A stretch of 64,000 nucleotides of DNA, taken from positions 4,012 to 68,011 of the forward strand of contig CALXSE010000011.1 in NCBI GenBank assembly GCA_944391085.1, read 5' to 3'. The DNA is from an uncultured Kiritimatiellota bacterium (lineage in GTDB: Bacteria; Verrucomicrobiota; Kiritimatiellia; RFP12; DVOR01). How positions within the stretch are numbered: the first letter of the stretch is position 1; the number at the start of each line of letters is the position of its first letter. Both the position numbers and the translations under genes were made by a program. Under the pieces are notes generated by a model. The model saw only the letters and a program-made list of their open reading frames with translations. It had not been told where the DNA came from and ran no database searches. Below are positions 4,152 to 36,221 of this stretch, piece by piece.

Positions 4152-4711
4152 TGCCCGATCACCTCCCCCAGCGCAAAGGCCGCGCACACCGCCGCCGCGC
4201 CAGACGCCAGGAAAAGCGCCGCGGTCAGCCGGCGGAGCCCCGGCCGGCCGGCCAGCGCGTCGCACGCCGCCCGGAAGACCCACGGGTAAAAGACCACCAC
4301 CATCCCAAAGGTGAGGCTCGTGTAACCTACCGAGACGGGCACCAGGCGCCACGCCGTCGCCTGCTCGCGCACCGCGAGGATGACGGGCATCGGCCACAGC
4401 ATCATCAGCCCGCCCAGCGCCCGCGCGCACAGCAGGTTGCCCAACAGCAACCACGTCAGCGCCAGGCAGACCGCCGCGCCCACGATCGTCCGCGCCGGCG
4501 TCAGGAAGGCCAGGAAATCGATCGGGTGCAACGTCAGCTGCGCCGCCACCCACGCCCAGCAAAGCGCCGAGAGCCCCCACCCCAGCGCCCGGGCCCGCGG
4601 CAGGCGCGCCACCGCCGCCCCGGCGCCCGGCGCGAAGAGAAAACACCCAAAGGCCGCCAGCGCCGCGGCCAGCGCCCCCACCATCACCCGCGCCAAAGCC
4701 AGCTCACTCAT
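4148..4711 (-). CDS. hypothetical polytopic membrane protein
   Basis: 187-aa hydrophobic ORF in the same array, with start and stop overlaps to both neighbours. No motif recognised. Confidence 0.6.
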   Translation of the reverse strand: MSELALARVMVGALAAALAAFGCFLFAPGAGAAVARLPRARALGWGLSALCWAWVAAQLTLHPIDFLAFLTPARTIVGAAVCLALTWLLLGNLLCARALGGLMMLWPMPVILAVREQATAWRLVPVSVGYTSLTFGMVVVFYPWVFRAACDALAGRPGLRRLTAALFLASGAAAVCAAFALGEVIGQ

Positions 4712-5864
4712 CGCCGCCCTCCTTCCCGGACGCGCCGACCAACCGCTCCGAGGTCGCCCGCAGTTCCCCCCACGAGGCCTTGACGAAGGCCGTCAGCGGG
4801 ATGGCCAGAAGCAACCCCAGGAACCCGCCCAGCCGCGTCCAAAAGAGCAGGGCGAAGACAATCTGCCACGCGGCCAGCTTCATGCGGTTGCCCTGGATGT
4901 AGGGCTGCATGACGTAGCCGTCGAAGGTCTGCACGGCGCAGTAGACCGCGAAGATGGCCAGCGTATACCACGGCCCGCCGGAGACGAACGCCACCGGCAA
5001 CGCCACGCACAGCCCCAACGTCGCGCCCAGATACGGCACCAGGTTCATCAACCCCAGCACGAAGCCGATGAGGAAGCCGTTGGGCAGCCCCAGCAGCTGG
5101 AAGCCCGTGCCGTAAAGGATGCCCTGCAGCACCACGTCGATGATCTGCCCGCGGAAGTACGACACCACGATGTCGCTGAAGTTCCGGAAATACCGCGCCA
5201 CCGCCGCGCGCCCGCGCTCCCCCAGGAAGGGCAGTTTCGCCGCAAAGCCCTCCCCCGTCAGCGGCTCCTGCATCACGAAGAGCAGCCAGTAGAAGAAGGT
5301 CAGCAGCCACAGCAACGTCGTCGCCCCCGCCGAAAAGACCGCCCCGCCCACGGACATCCCCTTGCCGAACCACGCCGCCAGCTGCGTCAGGATGATCGAG
5401 CCATCCGCCCCGAAGACCCTCGGCAGGCTCGGCACCAGCCCCTGCACCAGCTCCCGCGCGTTGGGGAAGCGCGCCACCAGCTCCGCGCGCACCTGCTCCA
5501 TCACCCCCGGCAACACCTGCAGCAGCGCCGTGCCCTGCTCATAGAAGAACGACCCGAAGAACCACACCAGCAGCGCCAGCGGGATCAGGATCGACAGCGC
5601 GAAGGCCACCGCCGTCGGCACGTCATGCCGGCACCACCGCCGCAGCCGCGCATACCACGGCCGCGTCAGCAGGCTCAGGAAAAAGGCCACGATCACCGGC
5701 CCGACGATGTGCAGGAAATAGCCCAGCACCTCCAGCACCAGCCACACAAAGGCCACGAACCCCACCGCCAGCGCGGCGGCGCTCAAAAAGGTCAGCGACG
5801 CGGCGACCACGCGGTTCTGCGCCTCGCCCAACGTCACGAAACGCGCGCCCCTCTGCTCAGGCAT
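4704..5864 (-). CDS. AI-2E family transporter (PerM/UPF0118)
   Basis: 386 aa, multi-TM. The block GFVLGLMNLVPYLGATLGLCVALPVAF is typical of the AI-2E family. Confidence 0.8.
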   Translation of the reverse strand: MPEQRGARFVTLGEAQNRVVAASLTFLSAAALAVGFVAFVWLVLEVLGYFLHIVGPVIVAFFLSLLTRPWYARLRRWCRHDVPTAVAFALSILIPLALLVWFFGSFFYEQGTALLQVLPGVMEQVRAELVARFPNARELVQGLVPSLPRVFGADGSIILTQLAAWFGKGMSVGGAVFSAGATTLLWLLTFFYWLLFVMQEPLTGEGFAAKLPFLGERGRAAVARYFRNFSDIVVSYFRGQIIDVVLQGILYGTGFQLLGLPNGFLIGFVLGLMNLVPYLGATLGLCVALPVAFVSGGPWYTLAIFAVYCAVQTFDGYVMQPYIQGNRMKLAAWQIVFALLFWTRLGGFLGLLLAIPLTAFVKASWGELRATSERLVGASGKEGGDE

Positions 5865-6639
5865 CGCCGTCCTCCCCCGTCTTGAAACTCTCGGATCGGA
5901 TGGCGCGCACGGTCAGCTTCGTCACGCGCCCCATCCCCGGCCGGCGCACGCGGAACTCCCGGGGCACCCAACGCCCCTCCTCGCGCCCCAGCCGCTGCAC
6001 ATACATCTGGCGCACGGCCTTCCCGTCCGCGTCCAACTGCTCGGTCTGCAACAGGTTGCCGCTGCCTTTGTCCACCCACAGGCGCACCGCCGCCAATCCC
6101 GGCACGGGCGCCGGCGGCGTGGCCTCCAGCACCACGCAGTCGCGGCTGTTCTGGCGCGTCCGGATCCCCTTGGCGGCGATTTCCGCCTCGTCCAGCCGCC
6201 GCACGTCGGGCCACCAGAGGTAATCGAAGGAGAGATCCATCCACGTCAGGTCACTCTCGCCGATGGGCGTGTTCAGGCGCACGCCCTCCACGCGCGTGCC
6301 GTCGTCCTGCGTCAGGGCCAGGACGGGCGCGCCGCCGCGGCGCGTCAGCTCGGCGCGCAGCAGCCGCGTGCGGTCGCCCTGCGCGCGGAAGAGGTCGCAC
6401 GTCGCCGAGGGCTCCCCGCCCGACCAATCCAGCGTCAGCGCATAGGGCCGCTCCGTCTCCTCCAGCCCGCGGGCCTTGGCGGTGATGAGCGAGCCGGTGA
6501 CGGCGACGCGCTCGCGCGGGAACATCGAGCGGGCCTGGACCAGGATCTGCCGCGGCGAAAGCCCCGCCGTGGCGTCCTCCGCGCGGAGGGGCGCGCCCAG
6601 GGCCAGCGCGGCCAACAGAAGGGCTGCCAGGCGCCTCAT
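5857..6639 (-). CDS. secreted protein, outer-membrane lipoprotein-sorting (LolA-fold)-like
   Basis: Internal ATG at 6639 with signal peptide MRRLAALLLAALALGAPLRA. The beta-rich ~260-aa body resembles lipoprotein-sorting or DUF4367-type proteins. The function call is weak. Confidence 0.55.
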   Translation of the reverse strand: MRRLAALLLAALALGAPLRAEDATAGLSPRQILVQARSMFPRERVAVTGSLITAKARGLEETERPYALTLDWSGGEPSATCDLFRAQGDRTRLLRAELTRRGGAPVLALTQDDGTRVEGVRLNTPIGESDLTWMDLSFDYLWWPDVRRLDEAEIAAKGIRTRQNSRDCVVLEATPPAPVPGLAAVRLWVDKGSGNLLQTEQLDADGKAVRQMYVQRLGREEGRWVPREFRVRRPGMGRVTKLTVRAIRSESFKTGEDGDA

Positions 6640-7733
6640 TGCCCGTCGGCCCTTTCGATCAGCTCGCGCGAGAGCGCAAAGCCCGCCAGCGGCCGCATCC
6701 ACGCGGCGCGCAGGGCCTCTTCGCGCCACGGCTGGTAGGTGTCCACGTCGTGCGGCAGGGAGAGCTTGCGGCGCAGGGCGCGCCCATGCCTGCGGAAGAA
6801 GACGCGGTCGGTGGCGTCGTCGAACCACTGCGGGGACAGCGGGTCCACCTTCCGCGCCGTCGCCGCGCCGGTGGTCAGCCCCAGGCGCAGGTCGGAAAGC
6901 AGGTCGAGCGCCTCGGCCTCGCCCATCATCGTGGCGGCCTTGAGCACGGCCTTGGCGCGGGTGAGGATGTCGAGGAAGACGAACGGCTCGTCGCGCAGCA
7001 GCCGCCAGCGCGCCTCGGTCTCCTGCTCGGAGACGCGCACCAGGAACTCCCGGAAGTGCCCCGCGATTTCGGCCGTCGTCCCGCCCAGCGAGAAGCGGTT
7101 GAAGAGGATGATCAGGCTCCCGGGGGGCGGGTTCTCGGGATGCTCCAGCTCCACGAGCGCGCCCTTCGCCTCGGCCGCGTTGCAGAGCTCGTTCAGGTAG
7201 CCGAAGTGGGCCAGCCCCCCCAGGTGCATCCACGAGCGGATGCGCATCCCCGTGCCCACGAGCGTCGGCTGGGCCGTCAGGTACCCCAGGCCTGGCGCGG
7301 AGACGAAGCGCAGCGGCTCGGCAAGCGCGTCCACGAAGGCCCGCAGCAGCGCCGTCTTCCCCACGAAGTCCAGGAACGTCCCGCTCACCGAGAAGGTCAG
7401 GTGGTTGGCGCTCATCACCTCGCACCAGACCGTCGTCTCGCCGTCGCCGGCCGTCGCCTTGAGCAGGCGGTAGCCCGGGCCGCGCTCGCCGCGCGGCGAG
7501 AGGCCGTGGCAGACCTCGCCCATCTCGGCCAGGTCGTCGTCGTCGGTCACGTCCTCCGCGGCCACGCACGCCAGGAGCGCCTCCTGCAGCCGCCGCCCGA
7601 AGGCCTTGGCCGCGCGCTCGCCCATGCTCCCGGGGAAGACGGCCCCGCGCACGTTGCGCACCAGGGAGATCTGCGTCTTCGTGCAGAAGAGGCGCAGGTT
7701 CCGCTCCGCCGCGGCCGAGGGCTCATACGCCAT
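6636..7733 (-). CDS. mcsB: protein arginine kinase McsB-like (ATP:guanido phosphotransferase domain)
   Basis: ATG at 7733 (MAYEPSAAAERNLRLF). The guanidino-kinase core includes LTAQPTLVGTGMRIRSWMHL. Lies directly downstream of the McsA-like gene. Confidence 0.75.
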   Translation of the reverse strand: MAYEPSAAAERNLRLFCTKTQISLVRNVRGAVFPGSMGERAAKAFGRRLQEALLACVAAEDVTDDDDLAEMGEVCHGLSPRGERGPGYRLLKATAGDGETTVWCEVMSANHLTFSVSGTFLDFVGKTALLRAFVDALAEPLRFVSAPGLGYLTAQPTLVGTGMRIRSWMHLGGLAHFGYLNELCNAAEAKGALVELEHPENPPPGSLIILFNRFSLGGTTAEIAGHFREFLVRVSEQETEARWRLLRDEPFVFLDILTRAKAVLKAATMMGEAEALDLLSDLRLGLTTGAATARKVDPLSPQWFDDATDRVFFRRHGRALRRKLSLPHDVDTYQPWREEALRAAWMRPLAGFALSRELIERADGQ

Positions 7734-8286
7734 CGCCCGGCCCCCCTTCCGCGCCGCGCAGGGCGTCAAGCGCCGCGCGCAGACGTTTGGCCTCGCGGTA
7801 ATCCTCGCGCCGCAGCGCCTCGCCCAGGCGCCGCTCCAGGTCGCGCTCGGCCCCGGCCCGCTCCGCGCCGGGCAACGGGTCGCCCTTGTACGCATGGCCG
7901 CCCTGGCAGTCGTCGAAAAGGGCGCGCAGGGGCTTGGCGAAGGTCTTGTAGCACTGCGGGCAGCCGATGAGGCCGACCGAGCGGATCGCCTCCATCGTCG
8001 CGCCGCACCCGGGGCAGCGCGGCTCGCCGCCCCCGGCTTCCGGGTCGGCAAGGCCCTCGAGCATCTTGCCCAGGCGCCCGAAGAGCTCGCCCATGGGCGA
8101 GCCCCCCTGCCGCGGCGCCTCCCCGTCCGTATCGATGGCCGCCACCTGGATGCCGCGCGATTCGTCGAAGGCACGCTCGCGCTCGGCGCAGGCGTTGCAG
8201 ACGTAGAGCTCCTCGCGCTTCCCGTCGGGCCGCGTCCGGTACAGCACGGTCTCGGCGTCCTGCCGATGGCACAGCTCACACTTCAT
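7723..8286 (-). CDS. mcsA: McsA-like activator (paired CxxC zinc fingers plus UVR domain)
   Basis: ATG at 8286. The protein starts MKCELCHRQ...CNAC and continues with CPGCG...CPQC. The C-terminal part, LERRLGEALRREDYREAKRLRAALDAL, is UvrB/C-like. Confidence 0.7.
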   Translation of the reverse strand: MKCELCHRQDAETVLYRTRPDGKREELYVCNACAERERAFDESRGIQVAAIDTDGEAPRQGGSPMGELFGRLGKMLEGLADPEAGGGEPRCPGCGATMEAIRSVGLIGCPQCYKTFAKPLRALFDDCQGGHAYKGDPLPGAERAGAERDLERRLGEALRREDYREAKRLRAALDALRGAEGGPGDGV

Positions 8287-8831
8287 GACGCTCGGCCCTC
8301 CGCGATGCGGCGCAGGGCGGCCATCAGCGCCTCGGGCTCCGGCAGGCGCCCCGTGCCCTTGACCCCGCAGGCCAGCTCGCCGGCCTCCGGGTCCAGGAGG
8401 CGCGCGCCGCGGGCCTTGAGCGCCTCGGCGTTGGCCTGGGTGGCCGGGTTCGCCCACATGGCCGCGTTCATCGCCGGGGCCAGGATCAGCGGCCGCTCGC
8501 ACGCCAGGGCCGCCTGCGTCAGCAGGTTGTCGGCCAGGCCGTACGCCAGCTTCGACAACGTGTTGGCCGAGCACGGCGCCACGACGAACAGGTCGCACCA
8601 CCGCGCCAGCTCGATGTGCAGGGGGCGCCAATCCGCGCGCGGCGCGAAGGCGTCCGTCTCCACCGGGTGCTGCGAAAGCGTCCGCCACGTGATCTCGCCC
8701 ACGAAGTCGAGCGCACGCGGCGTCGCCGCCACGCGCACCTCCCACCCCTCGCGCACCATCAGGCGGACAAGGGAGCAGACCTTGTAGCACGCGATGGCCC
8801 CGGTCACGCCCAGAGAGACCTTCACGCTCAC
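8283..8831 (-). CDS. coaC: phosphopantothenoylcysteine decarboxylase-type flavoprotein (CoaC domain only)
   Basis: 182 aa with a GTG start that overlaps the gmk stop (GTGA). Motifs LGVTGAIACYK...VVAPCSANTLSKLAYGLADNLL...PAMNAAMW. Confidence 0.8.
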   Translation of the reverse strand: MSVKVSLGVTGAIACYKVCSLVRLMVREGWEVRVAATPRALDFVGEITWRTLSQHPVETDAFAPRADWRPLHIELARWCDLFVVAPCSANTLSKLAYGLADNLLTQAALACERPLILAPAMNAAMWANPATQANAEALKARGARLLDPEAGELACGVKGTGRLPEPEALMAALRRIAEGRAS

Positions 8832-9421
8832 AGCTCGCCCCCCTTCACCAAAAGGATGTCCCGCAGGCGGCGATAGGCCACCTGCAGATCGTCGTTCACC
8901 ACGCGGTAAGCGAACTCATGGGCGCGCGCCAGCTCGCCCTGCGCGTTGGCCAGGCGCGTCTCGATGCTCTCGGGGCTGTCCTCCCCGCGCCCCTCCAGGC
9001 GCCGGCGCAGCTCCTCCACGCTCGGCGGCTCGATGAAGACGTCCACGAACCCTTCGCGCAGCGGGTCGCCCGCCGGCAACCCCGCCACGAAGCGCCGCAC
9101 CGACGCCGCCCCCACCACGTCGATGTCCATCAGCACGCTCTGCCCCTCGGCGAAGGCCTCGCGCACCGGCCCCGCGGGCGTGCCGTAACGGTTGCCGTGG
9201 ACGGTGGCGGATTCCAGCAGCAACCCCTCGCGCTCCTGCCGCGCGAACGCCTCGGGCGTGAGGAAGAAGTAATCCACCCCGTCCTCCTCCTCCCCGCGCG
9301 GCGCGCGCGTCGTGCACGAAATCGAATAGGTGATCTCCGGGAACTCCCGCAGCAGCAGGTCGCACAACGTGCTCTTGCCCGCCCCGCTGGGCGCGCTCAT
9401 CACAATCAGCAACGGCTTCAT
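8828..9421 (-). CDS. gmk: guanylate kinase
   Basis: Internal ATG at 9421. MKPLLIVMSAPSGAGKSTLCDLLL (P-loop) is followed by SCTTRAPRGEEEDGVDYFF. Confidence 0.9.
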   Translation of the reverse strand: MKPLLIVMSAPSGAGKSTLCDLLLREFPEITYSISCTTRAPRGEEEDGVDYFFLTPEAFARQEREGLLLESATVHGNRYGTPAGPVREAFAEGQSVLMDIDVVGAASVRRFVAGLPAGDPLREGFVDVFIEPPSVEELRRRLEGRGEDSPESIETRLANAQGELARAHEFAYRVVNDDLQVAYRRLRDILLVKGGEL

Positions 9422-25661: not shown

Positions 25662-25786
25662 ACGCCGTGGGAGAGCCACGGCGACACCCGCACAGTGCTG
25701 CGCAAGTTGTCCGTTCGAACCTGAGAAATTCGCGCTTTAGGCAACAAGACAAGGCAAGGTGCGCCAATTTTGGCGCATCCCTTTTC
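25662..25786 (+). ncRNA. candidate small RNA or attenuating leader upstream of the PEP-CTERM protein gene
   Basis: Lies downstream of the putative -10 box. Contains hairpin GCCGTGG-gagag-CCACGGC. Ends in the 9-bp hairpin GGTGCGCCA/TGGCGCATC followed by CCTTTTCG. The CDS begins 190 nt further on. Confidence 0.35.
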
Positions 25787-25975
25787 GTGTTCCTAAAGAG
25801 GCTTCTCAGGGCCTGAACGGAGACCGGCGAGGGGTGCGTCCCTTTTGGGGGCGGCCCCGGCGGCGACGGCGGGCGGCGCACGCGGGCGCGTGTCCGCGGC
25901 GCGACAGCCGAAGGGCCCACCTCCCGCCCCAGTCCCCCTCGGCCACCCTCGGGGCGGAAGGAGCAATCCAACCAC

Positions 25976-31268: not shown

Positions 31269-33776
31269 TCACCAGCCGGCGGGGGATTCGCCGGCGTGGC
31301 GGTCGACGCCGGCGTAGGAGAGGCTCGCGTCCTCGTAGCGCTTGAAGTTCAGCACGGCCAGGTTCATCAGCTCGTCGTTGAAGAGGCGCAGGGAGACGAG
31401 CAGCCGGAAATCTTCCAGCGTCAGCCCCGTCACCCGCTCGAAGAGCGCCGTCTCCAGCTGCTCGATCACCTCGCGGAGCGACCGCTCGCGATAATCCGTC
31501 AGATACATGAAGACGGGGAGGCGCGCGGCGAACTTGATGAGCTTCTCCTGCACCTGCCTGCGCAGGCTCTTGAGCTCCTTCTCCTCCGGCGTCTCCCTGG
31601 GCCGCTCGCGCGCCTTGCCCGGCCCGTCCCGGGATTCGCGCTTGCCCTTCTTGATGGCATCCGTGCGGTTGATGATGGTCTCGATGGTGTCCCGGCCGAG
31701 GTTGCGGTCGGCGATGATCTTCCCGATGGCGTCCAGCGCCGCCGGGTTTCCCTGCACGCGCCTGAGCGTCTCGTTGTCCACGTTCACGAGCAGGGCGCTC
31801 TGCCAGCGGCGGGCCAGGAGGGTGGCCGCGTCGCCGGTGAAGGCGAGCTCCAGCACCTGCGCGGCGTTGATGGGGGTGAGCCTCCCGCCGTCGGAATAGA
31901 GGATGGGGAGGAAATGGATGAACTCCCCTACGCGCGCCTCGTCCGTCTGCGGGGCCGTCTCGTTGCAGCTCAGCTTGCCGCTGTACTCCGCCACCTGGCG
32001 CAACGCCCGGTTCGGCGCGAAGTCCAGCACGTAGCACTGCCGCTTGATGATGACCTCCCCGCCCTGCGCGTCGCGCGTCGTCCACGGGCTCTGCACGCGG
32101 AAGGCCGCCTGGAAATAGGTCTCCGGGCTCTGCAGGTTGCGCAACATCAGGATGCCGCCCCACGGCCGTACCGTCACGCCCGTGGTCAGCTTGCCGCACG
32201 TCAGCGTGATGGTCTTCGAGGCCATCGGGTCCTCCATCCGCGCCTCCACCGCCTCCAACGCCGCCGCGCCCATGCCCACATGCTTCCCCGCGCACACGAT
32301 CACCCCAAAGTCCCGCCACCACGCGTTCCGCTTCGCGCGCAGCAGCGCGGCCATCGCCTCGCACGCCGCCACGCTCGGCAGGAACCACACCGAGTGCCGG
32401 AGCGCGTCGGCCAACGCCCCGTGCGCGAAGGGCAGCGCCACGGGCTCGTGGCTCCTCAGCCCCTCCACCTCGCTCGGCAGGTAACGCCCCCGCAGGTAAT
32501 CCAGCCACTGCTGCACGTTCTCCTCCCACACGAACCGCGGCCGCCCGTCCGCCTCCTTCGCGGTCGAGAAGAAGGTGTTCAGGTCAAAGGTATCGAACTC
32601 CCCCTGCTCCGCCACCTTGCGGATGGCCTCCGGCAGGCGGTAGGTCAGCATCACCATCTGCGGCAACGCCGCATAGGGGTTCGGCCCCGGGCCCTTCCAC
32701 GCCGCCTTGGCCCGCTGCTCATCCGCGTACGTCCACCCATAGACCTGCTCCTCGATGAACTCCCCGCTCGCCAGCGACCGGAAGGGCGTCCCGGAAAGAT
32801 AAAGGTAACGCTCCGCCCGGATGGGCAGATCCGCCTCGGACAGGCGCCCCGCGCCCGTGGGCGCCGCCCCCTCCGCGGCCTCTGCGGCCTCCACCTCCTT
32901 CTCCTCGTCCTCCTTCGCGAAAAGCTCCTGCGCCCGCTCCCGCCACGCGCCGTAGTGATACTCGTCAAAGATGACCAGATCCCACCGCTCCTCGCGCACC
33001 CACCTGTGCTGCTCCTTGATGCCGCCGAGCGCGTTCAGCCCCAAAAAGTCCTGGAACGACCCAAAGCAGACGATGGGCCGCCGGCCGTCCGCGGCCAGAT
33101 ACTGCTCCTCCAGGCCCGGCGCCGACGGGTCGCCGTCCCGCCGCCGGATGAACTGCCACCCCTCGAAATCCACATGCGTCAGGCAATCCTCCTCCCACGC
33201 GCTCACCACCGCCGGCTTGAACGTGAGGATAAGGATCCGCCTGAACCCCATCGCCTTCGCCAGCTCATAGGCCGCGAAGGTCTTCCCGAAGCGCATCTTC
33301 GCGTTCCACAGGAAGCGCGGCCTCGTCCCCGGCTCCTCCCGCGCCTTCCGGCGGAAGTAATCCGCCGTCACCCGCACGGCCTCGGCCTGCTCCGGGCGCA
33401 TCGCGAAGTCCCGCGTCCGCCCCCGCTGGAACTCCCGCCGGTTGCGCGCCGCCACGATGGCCGCGCGCACCACCTCCACCCCACACCGAACCCACTCCCC
33501 CGCAAGCCGCCGCACCCCCTGCCGCCTCAGCTGGCGAAAGACCGCATGGTCGCCGAAGGTCGTCCCATCCCGCCGCATCGCCGACTCCCGCAACACGACC
33601 TCATAGATGGCGTGCGGCATCTTGATGGCCGCCACCTGCTCGCGGATGCGTATCTCCACCTCCCGCTCCGTGTAGCCCACCTTCAGCAGCCCCTCGTAAC
33701 CCTCCGCCTTCAGCCGGTAGGCATAGATCGTCGGCCGCACCGCGGCCCGCCCCTCAAGCACAAACGCTTCCGCCAT
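31269..33776 (-). CDS. T5orf172/GIY-YIG-like domain fused to an SF2 (DEAH, type III Res-like) helicase; putative restriction/defence subunit
   Basis: The N-terminal TIYAYRLK...LLKVGYTEREVEIRIREQ...GEWVRC is a T5orf172-type pattern. Helicase motifs are FGKTF (I), VIFDEYHYG (II), LSGTPF (III) and QAAFRVQSP (VI). The start lies 1 nt after the methyltransferase stop. Confidence 0.8.
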   Translation of the reverse strand: MAEAFVLEGRAAVRPTIYAYRLKAEGYEGLLKVGYTEREVEIRIREQVAAIKMPHAIYEVVLRESAMRRDGTTFGDHAVFRQLRRQGVRRLAGEWVRCGVEVVRAAIVAARNRREFQRGRTRDFAMRPEQAEAVRVTADYFRRKAREEPGTRPRFLWNAKMRFGKTFAAYELAKAMGFRRILILTFKPAVVSAWEEDCLTHVDFEGWQFIRRRDGDPSAPGLEEQYLAADGRRPIVCFGSFQDFLGLNALGGIKEQHRWVREERWDLVIFDEYHYGAWRERAQELFAKEDEEKEVEAAEAAEGAAPTGAGRLSEADLPIRAERYLYLSGTPFRSLASGEFIEEQVYGWTYADEQRAKAAWKGPGPNPYAALPQMVMLTYRLPEAIRKVAEQGEFDTFDLNTFFSTAKEADGRPRFVWEENVQQWLDYLRGRYLPSEVEGLRSHEPVALPFAHGALADALRHSVWFLPSVAACEAMAALLRAKRNAWWRDFGVIVCAGKHVGMGAAALEAVEARMEDPMASKTITLTCGKLTTGVTVRPWGGILMLRNLQSPETYFQAAFRVQSPWTTRDAQGGEVIIKRQCYVLDFAPNRALRQVAEYSGKLSCNETAPQTDEARVGEFIHFLPILYSDGGRLTPINAAQVLELAFTGDAATLLARRWQSALLVNVDNETLRRVQGNPAALDAIGKIIADRNLGRDTIETIINRTDAIKKGKRESRDGPGKARERPRETPEEKELKSLRRQVQEKLIKFAARLPVFMYLTDYRERSLREVIEQLETALFERVTGLTLEDFRLLVSLRLFNDELMNLAVLNFKRYEDASLSYAGVDRHAGESPAGW

Positions 33777-33777
33777 C

Positions 33778-35286
33778 TCACGCCTCCATCGGCTTCACCA
33801 TACCCTCAATGAACGCGACCTCTTCGTCCGTCAGCCCATACTTCGCGTACAGCTCCGCGTCCGTCCACGGCCTCGAAAAGTCCTGCAGGGGGACAAGCCG
33901 ATAAACGCGTTTTGTCGCATGTTGAGTATTTTTCAAGAGTAAGATTAGGAATCGACAGAAACAAGTAGACATATACTGTTTGACATTTTCTGCGACCCTC
34001 TGGTCTTTGTATACACCTATTACAAGATAGGTCTCAGAGCAACACGATTCGGGTTCCGCAAGAAAAGGTTTTCCTATCACTTGATAGGGGAAATCGCCAC
34101 GTTCGCCATAAGCATAGGAAATCATTACCTTCCAACGGTCTATCCACGCTTGTTTCTCGGGCACGTCCGCGCGGGCAATGTAACGGGGTTCCTTTGTAGC
34201 GTTTTTACTGGCATACAGGCGGACATCTCCTTTTTCTTTGCCGACATGTCCCAATACCTTCGTCTCCAGGCCAAAGGGCCGTCTTTCACTCACCAGCAAA
34301 GCGAAGGAATGTTCCTTTTTCGCGCGCACCTTCTCCACGATGGACAAAGCCTCGTTGAAACGGATGAAGGCCTCCGACCAAGGGAAAAGCAATGTGCGCC
34401 GGGTCTCGGAGGTCGCCCGCTTCCCGACGTTGCGGAAGGTGCAAAGCCCGCGATAGTCGCGTTGCCAATGGAAATAACAAACCCCGCCCGAGATATCCAC
34501 CCCATCGCCGAAGCAAATCTTGGAGTCGAAGTAATCCACAATCGTTTTCAGGCGTTCGTCGCGGAGCATCGTCTCACGGAACCGAACGAGGCCTTTTCCC
34601 CCCGTGAACCAACGGGCGGGAATAATCATGACAAGGTGATTCGGATGCAGTGCCTTGGCCTGTTCGACGAAGAGGTTGTAGATGGGCGTGGCGCTGGCGC
34701 TGTCGCTGCCGTCATCCAGTTGATACGGGGGGTTGCCGATGATGACGTCGAACTTCATGTCGAAGAGCCTTTCTGGGTTGACGCCATGGATAAAGGCGTA
34801 GGCGTGGGATTCGGCGCGCTTCCCGAAGACCTCCGCGGAGGCGCCGCAGAGCGTACACCTGCCGCCCTTCCAGGCGTGCGCGGCGGGCGGCAGCGGGATG
34901 TTGCCCTCGGGAGTGTCGAAGTGGGAGATGGCGTATTCGCCGTCGGCGGACTTGGTGCAGTAGACGGTGCGGCGGGAGGTGAGGGCGGTGAGCTCGGTGA
35001 TGGCCAGCCCAAAGAGCTGCCGGTGGAAGATGTGGTCCAGGCGCTCCTGCAGGTCTGGGAAGGTCGGTTCCAGCCCCTTGATGAGGCGTTTGGCGATTTC
35101 GCGGAGGAAGACGCCGCTCTTGCAGCAGGGGTCGAGGAAGGTGGCCGAGGGGTCGGAAAAGAGCCCCTGCGGCAAGAGGTCGAGCATGGCGTTGGCCACG
35201 CGCGGGGGCGTGAAGACCTCGTCGTTGGACAGGTTGGCCAGGCACTCCAGCACGTCCGGGTTGCGCACAATCTTCTCCGTTTCCAT
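33778..35286 (-). CDS. gamma-class N6-adenine DNA methyltransferase (Eco57I-type methylase domain) with a C-terminal recognition-like region
   Basis: EVFTPPRVANAML (motif X), FLDPCCKSGVFL (motif I) and DVIIGNPPYQ (motif IV). The 3' half is visibly AT-richer than the genome. Confidence 0.85.
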   Translation of the reverse strand: METEKIVRNPDVLECLANLSNDEVFTPPRVANAMLDLLPQGLFSDPSATFLDPCCKSGVFLREIAKRLIKGLEPTFPDLQERLDHIFHRQLFGLAITELTALTSRRTVYCTKSADGEYAISHFDTPEGNIPLPPAAHAWKGGRCTLCGASAEVFGKRAESHAYAFIHGVNPERLFDMKFDVIIGNPPYQLDDGSDSASATPIYNLFVEQAKALHPNHLVMIIPARWFTGGKGLVRFRETMLRDERLKTIVDYFDSKICFGDGVDISGGVCYFHWQRDYRGLCTFRNVGKRATSETRRTLLFPWSEAFIRFNEALSIVEKVRAKKEHSFALLVSERRPFGLETKVLGHVGKEKGDVRLYASKNATKEPRYIARADVPEKQAWIDRWKVMISYAYGERGDFPYQVIGKPFLAEPESCCSETYLVIGVYKDQRVAENVKQYMSTCFCRFLILLLKNTQHATKRVYRLVPLQDFSRPWTDAELYAKYGLTDEEVAFIEGMVKPMEA

Positions 35287-35301: not shown

Positions 35302-36021
35302 TCAAAGATCCAAGGTCATCTGGACAACGCCCGGGGCGACCGCCTCCACGGCGCGGCGTACCCCGGGCGGCGGGGCGTCGGCAGACAAGGGCGCGAGCGC
35401 ATGGTAGGGCACGGGGGGAAAGGCGTTGTTGGGGAGGGCCGCGAACGGAAGACTGTCCGAATCGTCGAGCAAATCGGCGAGGGAACACTCCGCGCGGGCC
35501 ACGGCGTCGCCCTGCCACCGCCACTCGGTGAAGACGATCGGCGGGTGGGTCTCCGTCCCCTCGGGGTGGAGCGTATCGCCCAGGACGATGTTCCGCTCCA
35601 GGACAAAGCGGGCGGCGGCCAGATAGACGGGGAATTGACGTTGCCCGCGCAGGCGCTTGCCGTGCGCCGCCTCCCAGCGGGCGAGGAGCGCGGCGCGGCA
35701 GGCGGCCACGTTGTCGGGCAGGATGTCGATGCCGTAGAGCGAGGTCAACGCCTCGAAGGCCGCGCGGCGGAAGCGGGCCGTATCGTTGCGGCCGCCGACC
35801 AGCCGGCGCGCCGCGCGCAGTTTCCGCCTGAAAATCTCGACCAGGAAGTTGCCGTCGCCGCAGGCGGGCTCAAGGAAGCGGGCGCCCACGTCGGCGCATT
35901 GGGCGGCCACCAAATCGCACATGTCGCGGACGAGCCAATCGGGGGTAAAGACCTCCCCATGGTCCCGCACGCGTTTACGGGACTTGATCAGTCTCTGTTC
36001 CGTCTCCCTGGCCTTCGCCAT
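35302..36021 (-). CDS. methyltransferase-like protein: SAM-binding N-terminal module only, motif IV degenerate
   Basis: EVFTPDWLVRDM (motif X), FLEPACGDGNFL (motif I) and LYGIDI (motif II). Where NPPY is expected the sequence reads THPPIV. ATG at 36021; the track start at 36024 is a TTG. Confidence 0.7.
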   Translation of the reverse strand: MAKARETEQRLIKSRKRVRDHGEVFTPDWLVRDMCDLVAAQCADVGARFLEPACGDGNFLVEIFRRKLRAARRLVGGRNDTARFRRAAFEALTSLYGIDILPDNVAACRAALLARWEAAHGKRLRGQRQFPVYLAAARFVLERNIVLGDTLHPEGTETHPPIVFTEWRWQGDAVARAECSLADLLDDSDSLPFAALPNNAFPPVPYHALAPLSADAPPPGVRRAVEAVAPGVVQMTLDL

Positions 36022-36051
36022 CAAAAAAGCACGCCTTCCTTGTCCGTGCTT
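36022..36051 (-). terminator. terminator-like hairpin plus U-run immediately before the first gene of the R-M-like operon
   Basis: Minus strand AAGCACG-gacaaggaagg-CGTGCTT followed by TTTTG, then the ATG. It shares 4 nt with the long stem at 36048..36166. Confidence 0.4.
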
Positions 36052-36166
36052 TAGCTGAGGCCTTCGGAGCCCTTAAAAGAACACGCACAAAGAAGACGTG
36101 CCACAACGGCACGCCTTGCTCGACATGTTGCCCTTTTAATGAAAGTTCCGAAGTTTCAGCTAAAGC
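36048..36166. repeat. 119-bp imperfect inverted-repeat element (about 25 bp pairable arms plus an apical hairpin), low GC
   Basis: GCTTTAGCTGA (36048-58) pairs with TCAGCTAAAGC (36156-66). CTTCGGA (36062-68) pairs with TCCGAAG (36147-53). TTAAAAG (36073-79) pairs with CTTTTAA (36133-39). An apical hairpin CGTGCC/GGCACG lies at 36097-36113. Confidence 0.6.
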
Positions 36167-36221
36167 AACCGTATCTGCGCAAAGCGCAAACAAAGCCGCG
36201 GCTTTCCCGCGACGTGCCTTC

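What the first reader, a model, noticed from the sequence alone, without database searches (positions are those of the whole stretch)
35302..36021. Leading methyltransferase paralog with degenerate catalytic motif IV (HPPI instead of NPPY)
This protein shares motif X (EVFTP), motif I (FLEPACGDGNFL) and motif II (GIDI) with the downstream active-looking methyltransferase (EVFTPP, FLDPCCKSGVFL, GNPPYQ). At the position after the I..GD block, where (D/N/S)PP(Y/F/W) is expected, it reads THPPIV. The protein then ends about 70 aa later without a target-recognition region. It could be a SAM sensor or regulatory subunit, a specificity or assembly partner, or a decaying duplicate.
Basis: partly seen in the sequence, partly recalled or inferred. 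Interest (0 to 1): 0.6.

Follow-up and report, generated by a model that had tools for sequence, protein, structure and literature searches.

The report
Free-standing SAM-binding half-methyltransferase subunit
The small gene is not a decaying copy of the neighbouring methylase. It belongs to a very large, strongly conserved family of "half-methyltransferases" that keep only the cofactor-binding half, and it is the constant first gene of a widespread, untested three-gene restriction-modification-like defence cassette.

Summary
The ORF at 35302-36021 (-) is real, and THPPIV is in the sequence. However, HPPI is not a degenerate motif IV.

- **Family.** More than 5,300 homologues of about 210-270 aa exist. 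None of 120 inspected has (D/N/S)PP(Y/F/W). The conserved block is P-I-V-F-x-E-W; the H and the first P vary.
- **Where motif IV lies.** In single-chain relatives (about 500-575 aa) the same N-half, PIVFSEW included, is followed 20-80 residues later by a genuine FDVIIGNPPYQ and a catalytic/TRD half. In a split relative the second ORF starts MQFDVVIGNPPYQ. So the small protein is module A: the SAM-binding N-half (motifs X, I, II, III), ending before strand 4.
- **Selection and linkage.** dN/dS is 0.06-0.22. The gene is usually translationally coupled to the next one. It is followed by the other two cassette genes in 55 of 58 genome loci and precedes them in 54 of 55 helicase-anchored loci.
- **Partners.** These are a complete Eco57I/CamA-like MTase (own N-half B plus an exchangeable C-half) and a T5orf172-SF2 helicase (H). 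Actinobacteria carry a permuted form, A | H-B' | C.
- **Best reading (0.6).** It is an obligatory, non-catalytic SAM-binding subunit of this ATP-dependent R-M-like system. Its exact role is inferred, not shown.

The parts
35302..36021 (-). Module A: 239-aa free-standing SAM-binding half-methyltransferase. It has motifs X, I, II and III, then the family-specific PIVFxEW hairpin and tail. It has no motif IV, no strands 4-7 and no TRD.
   Evidence: ORF. More than 5,300 homologues. Conservation. AF2 model with pLDDT 82.7. dN/dS 0.055-0.216.
35521..35550 (-). T158-H-P-P-I-V-F-T-E-W167.
   Evidence: H159 and P160 vary; P161, I162, F164, E166 and W167 are near-invariant. In single-chain relatives the same block precedes the real FDVIIGNPPYQ.
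33778..35286 (-). Complete gamma-class N6-adenine MTase of 502 aa. N-half B covers residues 1-176 (motif X DEVFTPP, motif I FLDPCCKSGVFL, Cys/His cluster). The C-half runs from F179-DVIIGNPPYQ and holds the catalytic core and TRD.
   Evidence: Pfam Eco57I E 4.6e-29. AF2 pLDDT 88.4. Foldseek matches full-length CamA at E 7e-17 and TM 0.58, plus BrxX, M.TaqI and MmeI.
31269..33776 (-). Module H: 835-aa protein with an N-terminal T5orf172/GIY-YIG-like domain and an SF2 (ResIII) helicase. It is the presumed translocating nuclease.
   Evidence: Pfam ResIII is weak. PADLOC PDLC03626 REase_MTase_IIG gives E 1.3e-25 over residues 116-777. Orthologues carry T5orf172/MUG113. The alignment has 57% mean column identity.
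36023..36221 (-). Structured element of about 200 nt directly upstream of the small gene. It ends in a hairpin plus U-run that abuts the start codon. It is one copy of a dispersed repeat with about 24 copies in the genome, so it is not specific to the cassette.
   Evidence: Fold z-score -4.98. 14 of 52 pairs are compensatory in 4 sequences. No Rfam hit. Model R1 finds 26 matches (about 24 distinct copies) in the own genome, lying upstream of and co-oriented with unrelated genes.

Best explanation
**What it is**
- The 239-aa protein is 'module A', a free-standing N-terminal half of a gamma-class (Eco57I/TaqI/MmeI-type) adenine methyltransferase.
- It keeps the whole cofactor pocket contributed by motifs X, I, II and III, and adds a family-specific beta-hairpin (PIVFxEW...) and a short tail.
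- It stops before strand 4, so it has no motif IV, no catalytic half and no DNA-recognition domain.

**What it belongs to**
- It is an obligatory, translationally coupled third subunit of a four-module ATP-dependent restriction-modification-like system:
  - A;
  - B, a second and different N-half;
  - C, the NPPY catalytic core plus TRD, which is exchangeable;
  - H, the T5orf172 nuclease-like domain plus SF2 helicase.
- In this window the arrangement is A | B-C | H.

**Shown**
- Gene reality, family size and purifying selection.
- Near-obligate linkage to the cassette.
- Absence (not degeneration) of motif IV.
- Recurrent natural A-C fusions and an A|C split.

**Inferred**
- A binds SAM but cannot methylate on its own.
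- It works by docking on the methylase/helicase complex, most plausibly on the conserved catalytic core of C or next to B.
- It thereby acts as a cofactor-dependent assembly or control subunit that sets when the complex methylates and when it restricts.
For: **Family and motifs**
- More than 5,300 homologues of 210-270 aa, found across many phyla.
- EPACGxGNFL is present in 30 of 30 aligned sequences. Residue 99 is acidic in 30 of 30, G148 is present in 30 of 30, and residue 149 is D or N.
- None of 120 homologues has [DNS]PP[YFW].

**Selection and linkage**
- dN/dS is 0.055-0.216 in 10 pairs, comparable with the helicase.
- 55 of 58 genome loci with at least 5 kb downstream carry B, C and H.
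- 54 of 55 helicase-anchored loci with enough upstream sequence carry A.
- The stop of the small gene overlaps the MTase start in most loci.

**Relatives that place motif IV**
- Single-chain relatives join the same N-half, PIVFSEW included, to FDVIIGNPPYQ and a C-half homologous to the neighbour's.
- These fusions arose at least 6 times, by deletions that keep the tail of B.
- L140 is a true split, with its C-half ORF starting MQFDVVIGNPPYQ.
- The actinobacterial cassette is A | H-B' | C-only.

**Structure**
- The AF2 model of A folds confidently through strands 1-3 and a hairpin.
- It matches only the N-terminal part of CamA, LlaGI, MmeI and BrxX.
- The neighbouring MTase models as a complete CamA-like enzyme.

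**Co-conservation**
- A, B and H are co-conserved (72-97% identity) between cassettes whose C core (55-73%) and TRD (27-37%) have been swapped.
Against: - There is no biochemical or genetic datum for any member. No paper describing the small protein or this three-gene cassette was found.
- SAM binding is inferred from motifs only.
- The neighbouring MTase looks self-sufficient, so the need for A is unexplained.
- No complex prediction could be run, so no interface is known.
- One helicase-anchored locus (L194) lacks A.
- The related DnmA-YeeB-YeeC cluster of B. subtilis gave no phage protection in tests (PMC9973331). Defence activity of such helicase/T5orf172 systems therefore cannot be assumed.
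Confidence: 0.6

Rival explanations
1. A is the true SAM-binding half of the system's methyltransferase and pairs in trans with the catalytic/TRD half C, as a split enzyme. The cis N-half B is mainly the coupler to the helicase-nuclease. C would then alternate between an A:C state (modification only) and a B:C-H state (restriction).
For: - A|C split gene pair in L140.
- C-half-only proteins of 345-351 aa in the actinobacterial cassette, where B' is fused to the helicase.
- PADLOC holds a 348-aa C-half-only MTase model that matches residues 178-496 of the neighbour.
- At least 6 independent A-C fusions persist as orphan MTases.
- A has the more canonical motifs I-III. In B the motif II acid E98 is kept in only 25 of 30 sequences, and B has K56 and H167 in unusual places.
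- The recombination breakpoint for C swapping lies exactly at the B|C junction.
Against: - In the window B is covalently joined to C, and AF2 builds a complete CamA-like fold from B plus C.
- B is as conserved as A and keeps a TaqI-like motif I pattern, xPxCxxGxFL.
- One C-half cannot hold two N-halves at once, and the genome has no spare C-half.
Confidence: 0.22
2. A is an independent enzyme with a non-canonical active site, the conserved E166-W167 standing in for NPPY. It would methylate something other than the MTase's target: the second DNA strand, RNA, a protein or a small molecule.
For: - E166 and W167 are near-invariant (29 and 30 of 30 sequences) and follow a strand, as NPPY follows strand 4.
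- Free-standing copies exist in phages.
Against: - In single-chain relatives the same EW block coexists with a real NPPY further on, so it is not the motif IV equivalent.
- A lacks strands 5-7 and any substrate-binding domain.
- Minimal phage forms of 149-166 aa end before the EW block.
Confidence: 0.06
3. A is a vestigial remnant of an ancestral MTase gene, cut when the B-C gene was inserted, and has no function of its own.
For: - It is the truncated form of a longer architecture seen elsewhere.
- Deleted or chimeric cassette derivatives are common in metagenomes.
Against: - dN/dS is 0.055-0.216.
- Cofactor motifs are invariant across phyla.
- Length is conserved among more than 5,300 homologues.
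- A is retained in both the A|B-C|H and the A|H-B'|C arrangements.
Confidence: 0.03
4. A is a transcriptional or translational controller of the operon, a functional analogue of C proteins, that uses SAM as a signal.
For: - It is the first gene of the operon and is translationally coupled to the MTase.
- The N-terminus is basic (KSRKRVRDHGE).
Against: - No HTH or other DNA-binding domain is detected.
- The fold is a half Rossmann domain.
- The structured upstream element is a genome-wide repeat, not a cassette-specific operator.
Confidence: 0.05

Closest known systems
Type ISP restriction-modification enzymes (LlaGI, LlaBIII)
   Same: They combine a nuclease, an SF2 translocating helicase, a gamma-class N6-adenine MTase and a TRD in one functional unit. 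The A model has partial structural matches to the MTase domains of LlaGI and LlaBIII.
   Different: - Type ISP enzymes are single polypeptides with an Mrr/PD-(D/E)xK nuclease.
- Here the modules are on three polypeptides.
- The nuclease-like domain is T5orf172/GIY-YIG-like.
- There is an extra free half-MTase, which Type ISP enzymes lack.
DnmA (YeeA)-YeeB-YeeC cluster of Bacillus subtilis and its Vibrio crassostreae homologues (PMC9973331)
   Same: Both have an MTase without its own nuclease, linked to an SF2 helicase and a T5orf172 domain in a conserved operon found in defence islands.
   Different: - DnmA is a large MmeI-like MTase.
- In that cluster the helicase and T5orf172 are separate proteins.
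- No half-MTase subunit is described.
- The B. subtilis cluster showed no anti-phage or restriction activity.
CamA / M.TaqI / Eco57I-type gamma-class adenine MTases (Pfam PF07669, PF02384, PF20473)
   Same: A shares motifs X, I, II and III and strands 1-3 of the Rossmann-like fold with these enzymes. The neighbouring MTase matches CamA over its full length.
   Different: A has no motif IV, no strands 4-7 and no TRD. It scores below every Pfam gathering threshold.
Catalytically inactive MTase paralogues that partner an active one (METTL14 with METTL3; DNMT3L with DNMT3A). This comparison rests on my own knowledge.
   Same: In concept, a non-catalytic MTase-fold protein is an obligate partner of an active MTase.
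   Different: Those partners keep a complete, though degenerate, MTase fold. A is a half fold with an apparently intact cofactor pocket. There is no sequence relationship, and no test was run here.
Free-standing half-MTases of phages (BFVD: Phage sp. ctHEp8, 199 aa; Klebsiella phage KpV477, 153 aa; Prochlorococcus phage P-SSM2, 132 aa)
   Same: They have the same truncated fold (E 2e-11 to 4e-4). Solitary homologues occur in viral contigs.
   Different: They stand alone, without the MTase and helicase. Many are shorter and end right after motif III. Their function is unknown.

Membership tests
Catalytically competent gamma-class N6-adenine DNA methyltransferase | SAM-binding motifs X, I, II and III | tested here: met
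   GEVFTP, EPACGDGNFL, YGID and NIxxG(D/N)xL are present and near-invariant in the family.
Catalytically competent gamma-class N6-adenine DNA methyltransferase | Motif IV (D/N/S)PP(Y/F/W) after strand 4 | tested here: not met
   None of 120 homologues has it. In single-chain relatives it lies beyond the point where the small protein ends.
Catalytically competent gamma-class N6-adenine DNA methyltransferase | Complete seven-stranded Rossmann-like fold plus a target-recognition domain | tested here: not met
   The AF2 model has strands 1-3, a hairpin and one further strand. Foldseek aligns only about 105-146 columns to MTase N-terminal parts, best E 0.03.
Catalytically competent gamma-class N6-adenine DNA methyltransferase | Score above the Pfam gathering thresholds (N6_Mtase, MmeI_Mtase, Eco57I) | tested here: not met
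   MmeI_Mtase scores 21.4 against a threshold of 27. N6_Mtase scores 17.0 against 20.4.
Split MTase (N-half and C-half on separate polypeptides) | The partner polypeptide starts at strand 4/motif IV and lacks its own N-half | tested here: not met
   - In the window the partner MTase has its own N-half B and models as a complete enzyme.
- The feature is met in relatives: L140 and the actinobacterial cassettes.
Type ISP restriction-modification enzymes | Single polypeptide: PD-(D/E)xK nuclease, SF2 helicase, gamma MTase, TRD | tested here: not met
   The window has three polypeptides, and the nuclease-like domain is T5orf172. Fused H-B-C forms exist elsewhere (PDLC03626, 1359 positions; P0290, 1439 aa).
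Type III restriction-modification systems | Beta-class Mod MTase plus Res with a C-terminal PD-(D/E)xK nuclease | tested here: not met
   The MTase has gamma order (X, I ... IV ... TRD) and is CamA/TaqI-like. The nuclease-like domain is N-terminal T5orf172.
Conserved A | B-C | H three-gene cassette (unnamed) | Half-MTase, then Eco57I-type MTase, then T5orf172-SF2 helicase, co-oriented and tightly packed | tested here: met
   The window genes have gaps of 15 nt and 1 nt. The same order is seen in 55 of 58 and 54 of 55 loci.
Anti-phage defence system (functional) | Protects against phage or foreign DNA; self DNA is methylated at a defined site | not testable with these tools
   Only context is available:
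- PADLOC Type IIG hits;
- frequent location on prophage or viral contigs;
- a position next to McrBC in L250.

The most novel reading that the evidence does not exclude
The adenine methyltransferase of this system is a modular enzyme with two alternative cofactor-binding halves for one exchangeable catalytic/recognition half.
- Free module A can replace the cis (or helicase-borne) module B on C.
- The same recognition subunit would then toggle between a nuclease-free methylating state (A:C) and a helicase-coupled restricting state (B:C-H).
- That would be a hard-wired solution to the modification-versus-restriction decision. Type I and Type III enzymes solve the same problem by subunit stoichiometry.
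- Phage-borne solitary A copies would then be ready-made dominant-negative or methylation-promoting anti-restriction tools.
Probability: 0.2. Interest if true: 0.8.

Novelty: new variant of a known kind. Interest (0 to 1): 0.6.

Why it matters
- The cassette is common.
- No paper describing the small protein or this cassette was found. Databases label the small protein only generically, for example "restriction endonuclease subunit M" or "hypothetical protein".
- A conserved, cofactor-binding but non-catalytic half-enzyme as an obligate subunit is not part of the textbook Type I, II, III or ISP schemes.
- Natural A-C fusions, A|C splits and the permuted A|H-B'|C form amount to a ready-made series of domain-swap experiments.
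- If A controls the balance between methylation and cutting, it would explain how these systems avoid self-restriction while swapping specificity modules. It would also give phages an obvious target or mimic.
- For annotation, the lesson is practical: such small 'truncated MTases' should not be called pseudogenes.

Tried and rejected
1. **HPPI as a degenerate NPPY.** Rejected by family conservation and by alignment to single-chain relatives.
2. **Recent duplicate of the neighbour.** Rejected. Only 49-59 residues align.
3. **Pseudogene.** Rejected by dN/dS and by the size of the family.
4. **Sequence search of the PDB.** Only motif X-I matches were found.
5. **Fusions to other domains as hints to function.** The longer hits were mostly deletion chimeras or insertions: P0150, P0182, P0185 and P0179 join A to a truncated helicase, P0154 joins A to a truncated C-half, and P0149 carries a reverse-transcriptase fragment. 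They say nothing about function.
6. **Contexts of single-chain A-C MTases.** They are orphans, one of them in a phage-like region and neither with a cassette-type T5orf172 helicase. One look-up failed.
7. **Literature.** Four searches found no paper on this cassette or on half-MTase subunits.
8. **Cassette-specific regulatory leader RNA.** The upstream element is structured and conserved in four relatives. However, it is a dispersed repeat, with about 24 copies in this genome upstream of unrelated genes, so it is not specific to the system.
9. **Complex prediction.** Not possible with the tools. The read-through protein P0136 was used only as a search device.
10. **Second C-half in the genome for A to pair with.** None found in the 89%-complete assembly.

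Full report
**The observation**

The minus-strand ORF 35302..36021 encodes 239 aa. It contains GEVFTP (motif X), FLEPACGDGNFL (motif I), YGIDIL..DN (motif II) and NIVLGDTL (motif III). It then reads T158-H-P-P-I-V163, and the protein ends 76 residues later.

It is the first of three tightly packed genes:
- the small ORF;
- 15 nt later, a 502-aa Eco57I-type MTase (33778..35286);
- 1 nt later, an 835-aa ResIII helicase (31269..33776).

The small protein reaches no Pfam threshold (MmeI_Mtase 21.4 bits, N6_Mtase 17 bits). It does match the N-terminal part of PglX (E 1.1e-8) and of Type IIG MTase profiles (E 1.3e-9). Its similarity to the neighbouring MTase is limited to motifs X-I: 41% identity over 49 aa, and 59 columns by profile-profile comparison. 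The sequence facts are therefore right. The two proteins are distant members of one superfamily, not recent duplicates.

**A large conserved family without motif IV**

- A search of 5.8 billion proteins returned more than 5,300 hits of about 210-270 aa.
They come from many phyla:
  - Lentisphaerota, Kiritimatiellota, Planctomycetota and Verrucomicrobiota;
  - Bacteroidota and Bacillota;
  - Spirochaetota, Chlamydiota and Elusimicrobia;
  - Saccharibacteria, Pseudomonadota and Chloroflexota.
- In alignments, EPACGxGNFL, Y96-G97, an acidic residue at 99, D103-N104, N144 and G148 are invariant or nearly so.
- None of 120 homologues contains (D/N/S)PP(Y/F/W). In contrast, 112 of 118 contain P-[IL]-[IV]-F-x-E-W.
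- dN/dS of the small gene in ten pairs of related cassettes is 0.055-0.216, similar to the helicase.

The 'decaying duplicate' reading is excluded.

**Where motif IV really is**

The small gene and the MTase lie in the same frame. I therefore used the read-through translation (TGA as W, P0136) as a search device for longer proteins that carry the small-protein module. This found 500-575-aa single-chain MTases, for example P0159 of Niastella populi and P0168 of a Marinimicrobia MAG.
- Their first 170-240 residues are 35-50% identical to the small protein, PIVFSEW and the following KRRDF stretch included.
- They then continue with KFDVIIGNPPYQ and a C-half homologous to the C-half of the window's MTase.
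- In viral contig L140 the same two parts are separate genes: a 215-aa small protein, then an ORF that starts MQFDVVIGNPPYQ.

The PIVFxEW block therefore lies between motif III and motif IV. The small protein ends before strand 4. It has no motif IV, rather than a degenerate one.

**Structure predictions agree**
- With a 30-sequence alignment, AF2 folds the small protein confidently (pLDDT 82.7, above 90 for residues 30-180). It has strands at 49-52, 95-99 and 145-147, a hairpin at 163-170/173-180, and a further strand at 200-205.
- Foldseek finds only partial matches (105-146 columns, best E 0.03) to the N-terminal parts of the MTase domains of CamA, BsaXI, LlaGI, MmeI, LlaBIII and BrxX.
- Among viral models it matches free-standing 130-200-aa phage 'N-6 DNA methylases' (E 2e-11 to 4e-4).
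- The neighbouring 502-aa MTase models as a complete enzyme (pLDDT 88.4). It matches full-length CamA (E 7e-17, TM 0.58), BrxX/PglX, M.TaqI and MmeI.

**Synteny**
- Distant homologues (40-45% identity) sit in the same order: small gene, Eco57I MTase of about 505 aa, T5orf172-helicase of 836-971 aa.
- Of 58 small-gene-anchored genome loci with at least 5 kb downstream, 55 have N-half B, C-half and helicase. The other three are internally deleted cassettes.
- Starting instead from the helicase in metagenomes, 54 of 57 loci with at least 2.4 kb upstream have the small gene. Two of the three exceptions are cut by the contig end. Only L194 truly lacks it.
- In most loci the stop of the small gene overlaps the MTase start.
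- On IMG/VR contigs, 46 of 64 loci with enough flank carry the whole cassette, so it often rides on prophages or other mobile elements.
- In the window the cassette has 65.4% GC against 69.1% for the genome. The first-stage note on this same stretch describes its flanks as housekeeping genes, a GNAT and comF.

**A four-module system**

I call the small protein A, the MTase's own N-half B, the NPPY-plus-TRD half C, and the nuclease-helicase H.
- **Window-type cassettes: A | B-C | H.**
- **Actinobacterial cassettes: A | H-B' | C.**
  - This is a large family (Rhodococcus hoagii, Microbacterium foliorum, Micromonospora, Streptomyces, Bifidobacterium).
  - The helicase protein is 1,094-1,096 aa in more than 100 clusters. 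It ends in a B-like module with invariant SLVFTP and FADLFSTAGLFL.
  - C is a separate 345-351-aa protein.
  - A precedes the helicase and overlaps it.
- **Fully fused H-B-C forms also exist.** Examples are the PADLOC model PDLC03626 with 1,359 positions and P0290 with 1,439 aa.
- **C is exchanged between cassettes.** Between closely related cassettes A (72-96%), B (73-97%) and H (78-93%) stay similar. The catalytic core of C (55-73%) and the TRD (27-37%) do not. C is therefore swapped by recombination at the B|C junction, the same point at which natural splits occur.
- **A-C fusions are recurrent.** The single-chain A-C proteins are interspersed among cassette A proteins in the tree, with at least six switches forced by well-supported branches. 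Several keep the last 20-25 residues of B (..AYxFIH..MKFDVIIGNPPYQ). P0152 is closest to the same cassette (L035) in both halves. They thus arose repeatedly by in-frame deletion of most of B.
- **The fusions are orphan MTases.** In the two contexts recovered there is no cassette-type T5orf172 helicase, and one lies in a phage-like region.

**What this implies**

Comparative genomics shows the following:
- A is a functional protein.
- It keeps a canonical cofactor pocket but nothing of the catalytic half.
- It is a near-obligate partner of B, C and H in two very different gene arrangements.
- It is structurally compatible with C, because nature has joined or paired A and C many times.

The mechanism is inferred. 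My preferred reading (0.6) is that A is a non-catalytic, SAM-binding subunit that docks on the MTase/helicase complex. It would act as a cofactor-dependent assembly or control element that decides when the complex methylates and when it restricts.

The main rival (about 0.2) goes further. In it, A is the working SAM-binding half for C, and B is chiefly the coupler to H, so that C alternates between A and B.
- **For the rival:** A has the more canonical motifs I-III. E98 of B is kept in only 25 of 30 sequences, with unusual invariant K56 and H167. C-only proteins exist.
- **Against the rival:** B is covalently attached to C in the window and models as a complete CamA-like fold. B is as conserved as A. 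The genome holds no spare C-half.

The remaining rivals are unlikely, for reasons given in their own sections:
- an independent enzyme using E166-W167;
- a C-protein-like regulator;
- a vestige.

**Comparison with known systems**
- In what it works like, the cassette is closest to Type ISP enzymes (LlaGI, LlaBIII) and to the DnmA-YeeB-YeeC cluster (PMC9973331).
- It fails the membership tests for Type ISP: it has three polypeptides, a T5orf172 rather than an Mrr nuclease, and an extra subunit.
- It fails the tests for Type III: the MTase is gamma-class, not beta-class, and the nuclease-like domain is N-terminal.
- The B. subtilis DnmA cluster gave no phage protection, so defence activity should not be assumed.
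- Four literature searches found no description of the small protein or of the cassette.
- NCBI calls one orthologue 'restriction endonuclease subunit M'.

**Earlier notes of this scan**

I read these only after my own analysis. They describe the same triad in other genomes with similar conclusions. I treat them as leads, not as evidence. I re-derived the split and fused relatives, the C-half swapping and the phage half-MTases independently.

On one point my result differs. The structured element upstream of the cassette is real here too: z-score -4.98, 14 of 52 pairs compensatory in four sequences, and no Rfam family. However, it is a dispersed repeat with about 24 copies in this 1.73-Mb genome. 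The copies lie upstream of and co-oriented with unrelated genes, including PEP-CTERM-type secreted proteins, a glycosyltransferase-like gene and infA.

**Limits**
- No experiment exists for any member of the family.
- SAM binding, complex formation and defence activity are all inferences.
- No multimer prediction was possible.
- The loci sets are the best-scoring 80 of larger hit lists, so the frequencies describe the nearer part of the family.

Noticed in passing
window 36023-36221 (-); second copy at window 25741-25845 (+): - A structured element of about 200 nt ends in a hairpin plus U-run that abuts the start codon of the small gene.
- It is conserved with compensatory changes in L007, L008 and L009, and matches no Rfam family.
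- It is a dispersed repeat: model R1 gives 26 matches (about 24 distinct copies) in the 1.73-Mb genome.
- Most copies lie upstream of and co-oriented with unrelated genes (PEP-CTERM-like proteins, a glycosyltransferase-like gene, infA).
- It could be a promoter/leader module or a MITE-like element.
   Followed up: partly
L249 (Rhodococcus hoagii) 4460-9349; L250 (Microbacterium foliorum) 4310-9325; L164 5881-10941: Actinobacteria carry a permuted cassette: half-MTase | T5orf172-helicase fused to a B-like N-half (1,094-1,096 aa, invariant FADLFSTAGLFL) | C-half-only protein (345-351 aa). In M. foliorum it lies next to McrBC.
   Followed up: partly
L004/L011, L034/L065, L062/L085, L029/L073 and other pairs: Between near-identical cassettes (A, B and H 72-97% identical) the MTase catalytic core (55-73%) and TRD (27-37%) are replaced. 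Specificity swapping has its breakpoint at the start of strand 4.
   Followed up: yes
L105 1778-1936, L112 1239-1385, L120 6172-6309, L147 1178-1336, L083 10610-10753: In several loci the small gene is followed by only the first 52-59 codons of the MTase and then by unrelated genes. In L083 those codons lie 4 kb away. The break is always near MTase residue 52 (motif I). This may reflect insertion of a mobile element at a preferred site or recurrent deletion.
   Followed up: no
L110, L152, L157 (213-229 aa); L158-L162, L165, L167 (149-166 aa): Viral contigs hold solitary half-MTases with no MTase or helicase within 6 kb. The short forms end right after motif III. BFVD holds matching phage proteins (ctHEp8, Klebsiella phage KpV477, Prochlorococcus phage P-SSM2). 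They could be anti-restriction tools.
   Followed up: partly
L062 3150-3781, L085 8637-9286, L040 3846-4874, L080 8219-9997, L023 8428-9216 and others: About a third of complete cassettes (17 of 54) have 350-1,900 bp inserted between the MTase and the helicase. Most of the insertions hold unrelated passenger ORFs. One pair looks like a toxin plus an XRE-type HTH antitoxin, and another ORF is 342 aa and Abi-like.
   Followed up: no
window 34840-34960 (-), MTase residues about 110-147: N-half B carries a conserved Cys/His cluster (C110, H137, C144, C147; the last three are invariant). It lies in a stretch with little predicted secondary structure, where strand 3 would be expected. It may be a zinc-binding insertion.
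   Followed up: no
L194 3415-7457: This is the one helicase-anchored locus with ample upstream sequence that has the MTase and helicase but no half-MTase gene. Unrelated ORFs lie upstream instead.
   Followed up: partly
L007 6001-9605: The closest genome relative of the window's small protein (62% identity, Lentisphaeraceae) has an internally deleted cassette. Only MTase residues 9-154 remain, and the helicase starts at residue 46.
   Followed up: no
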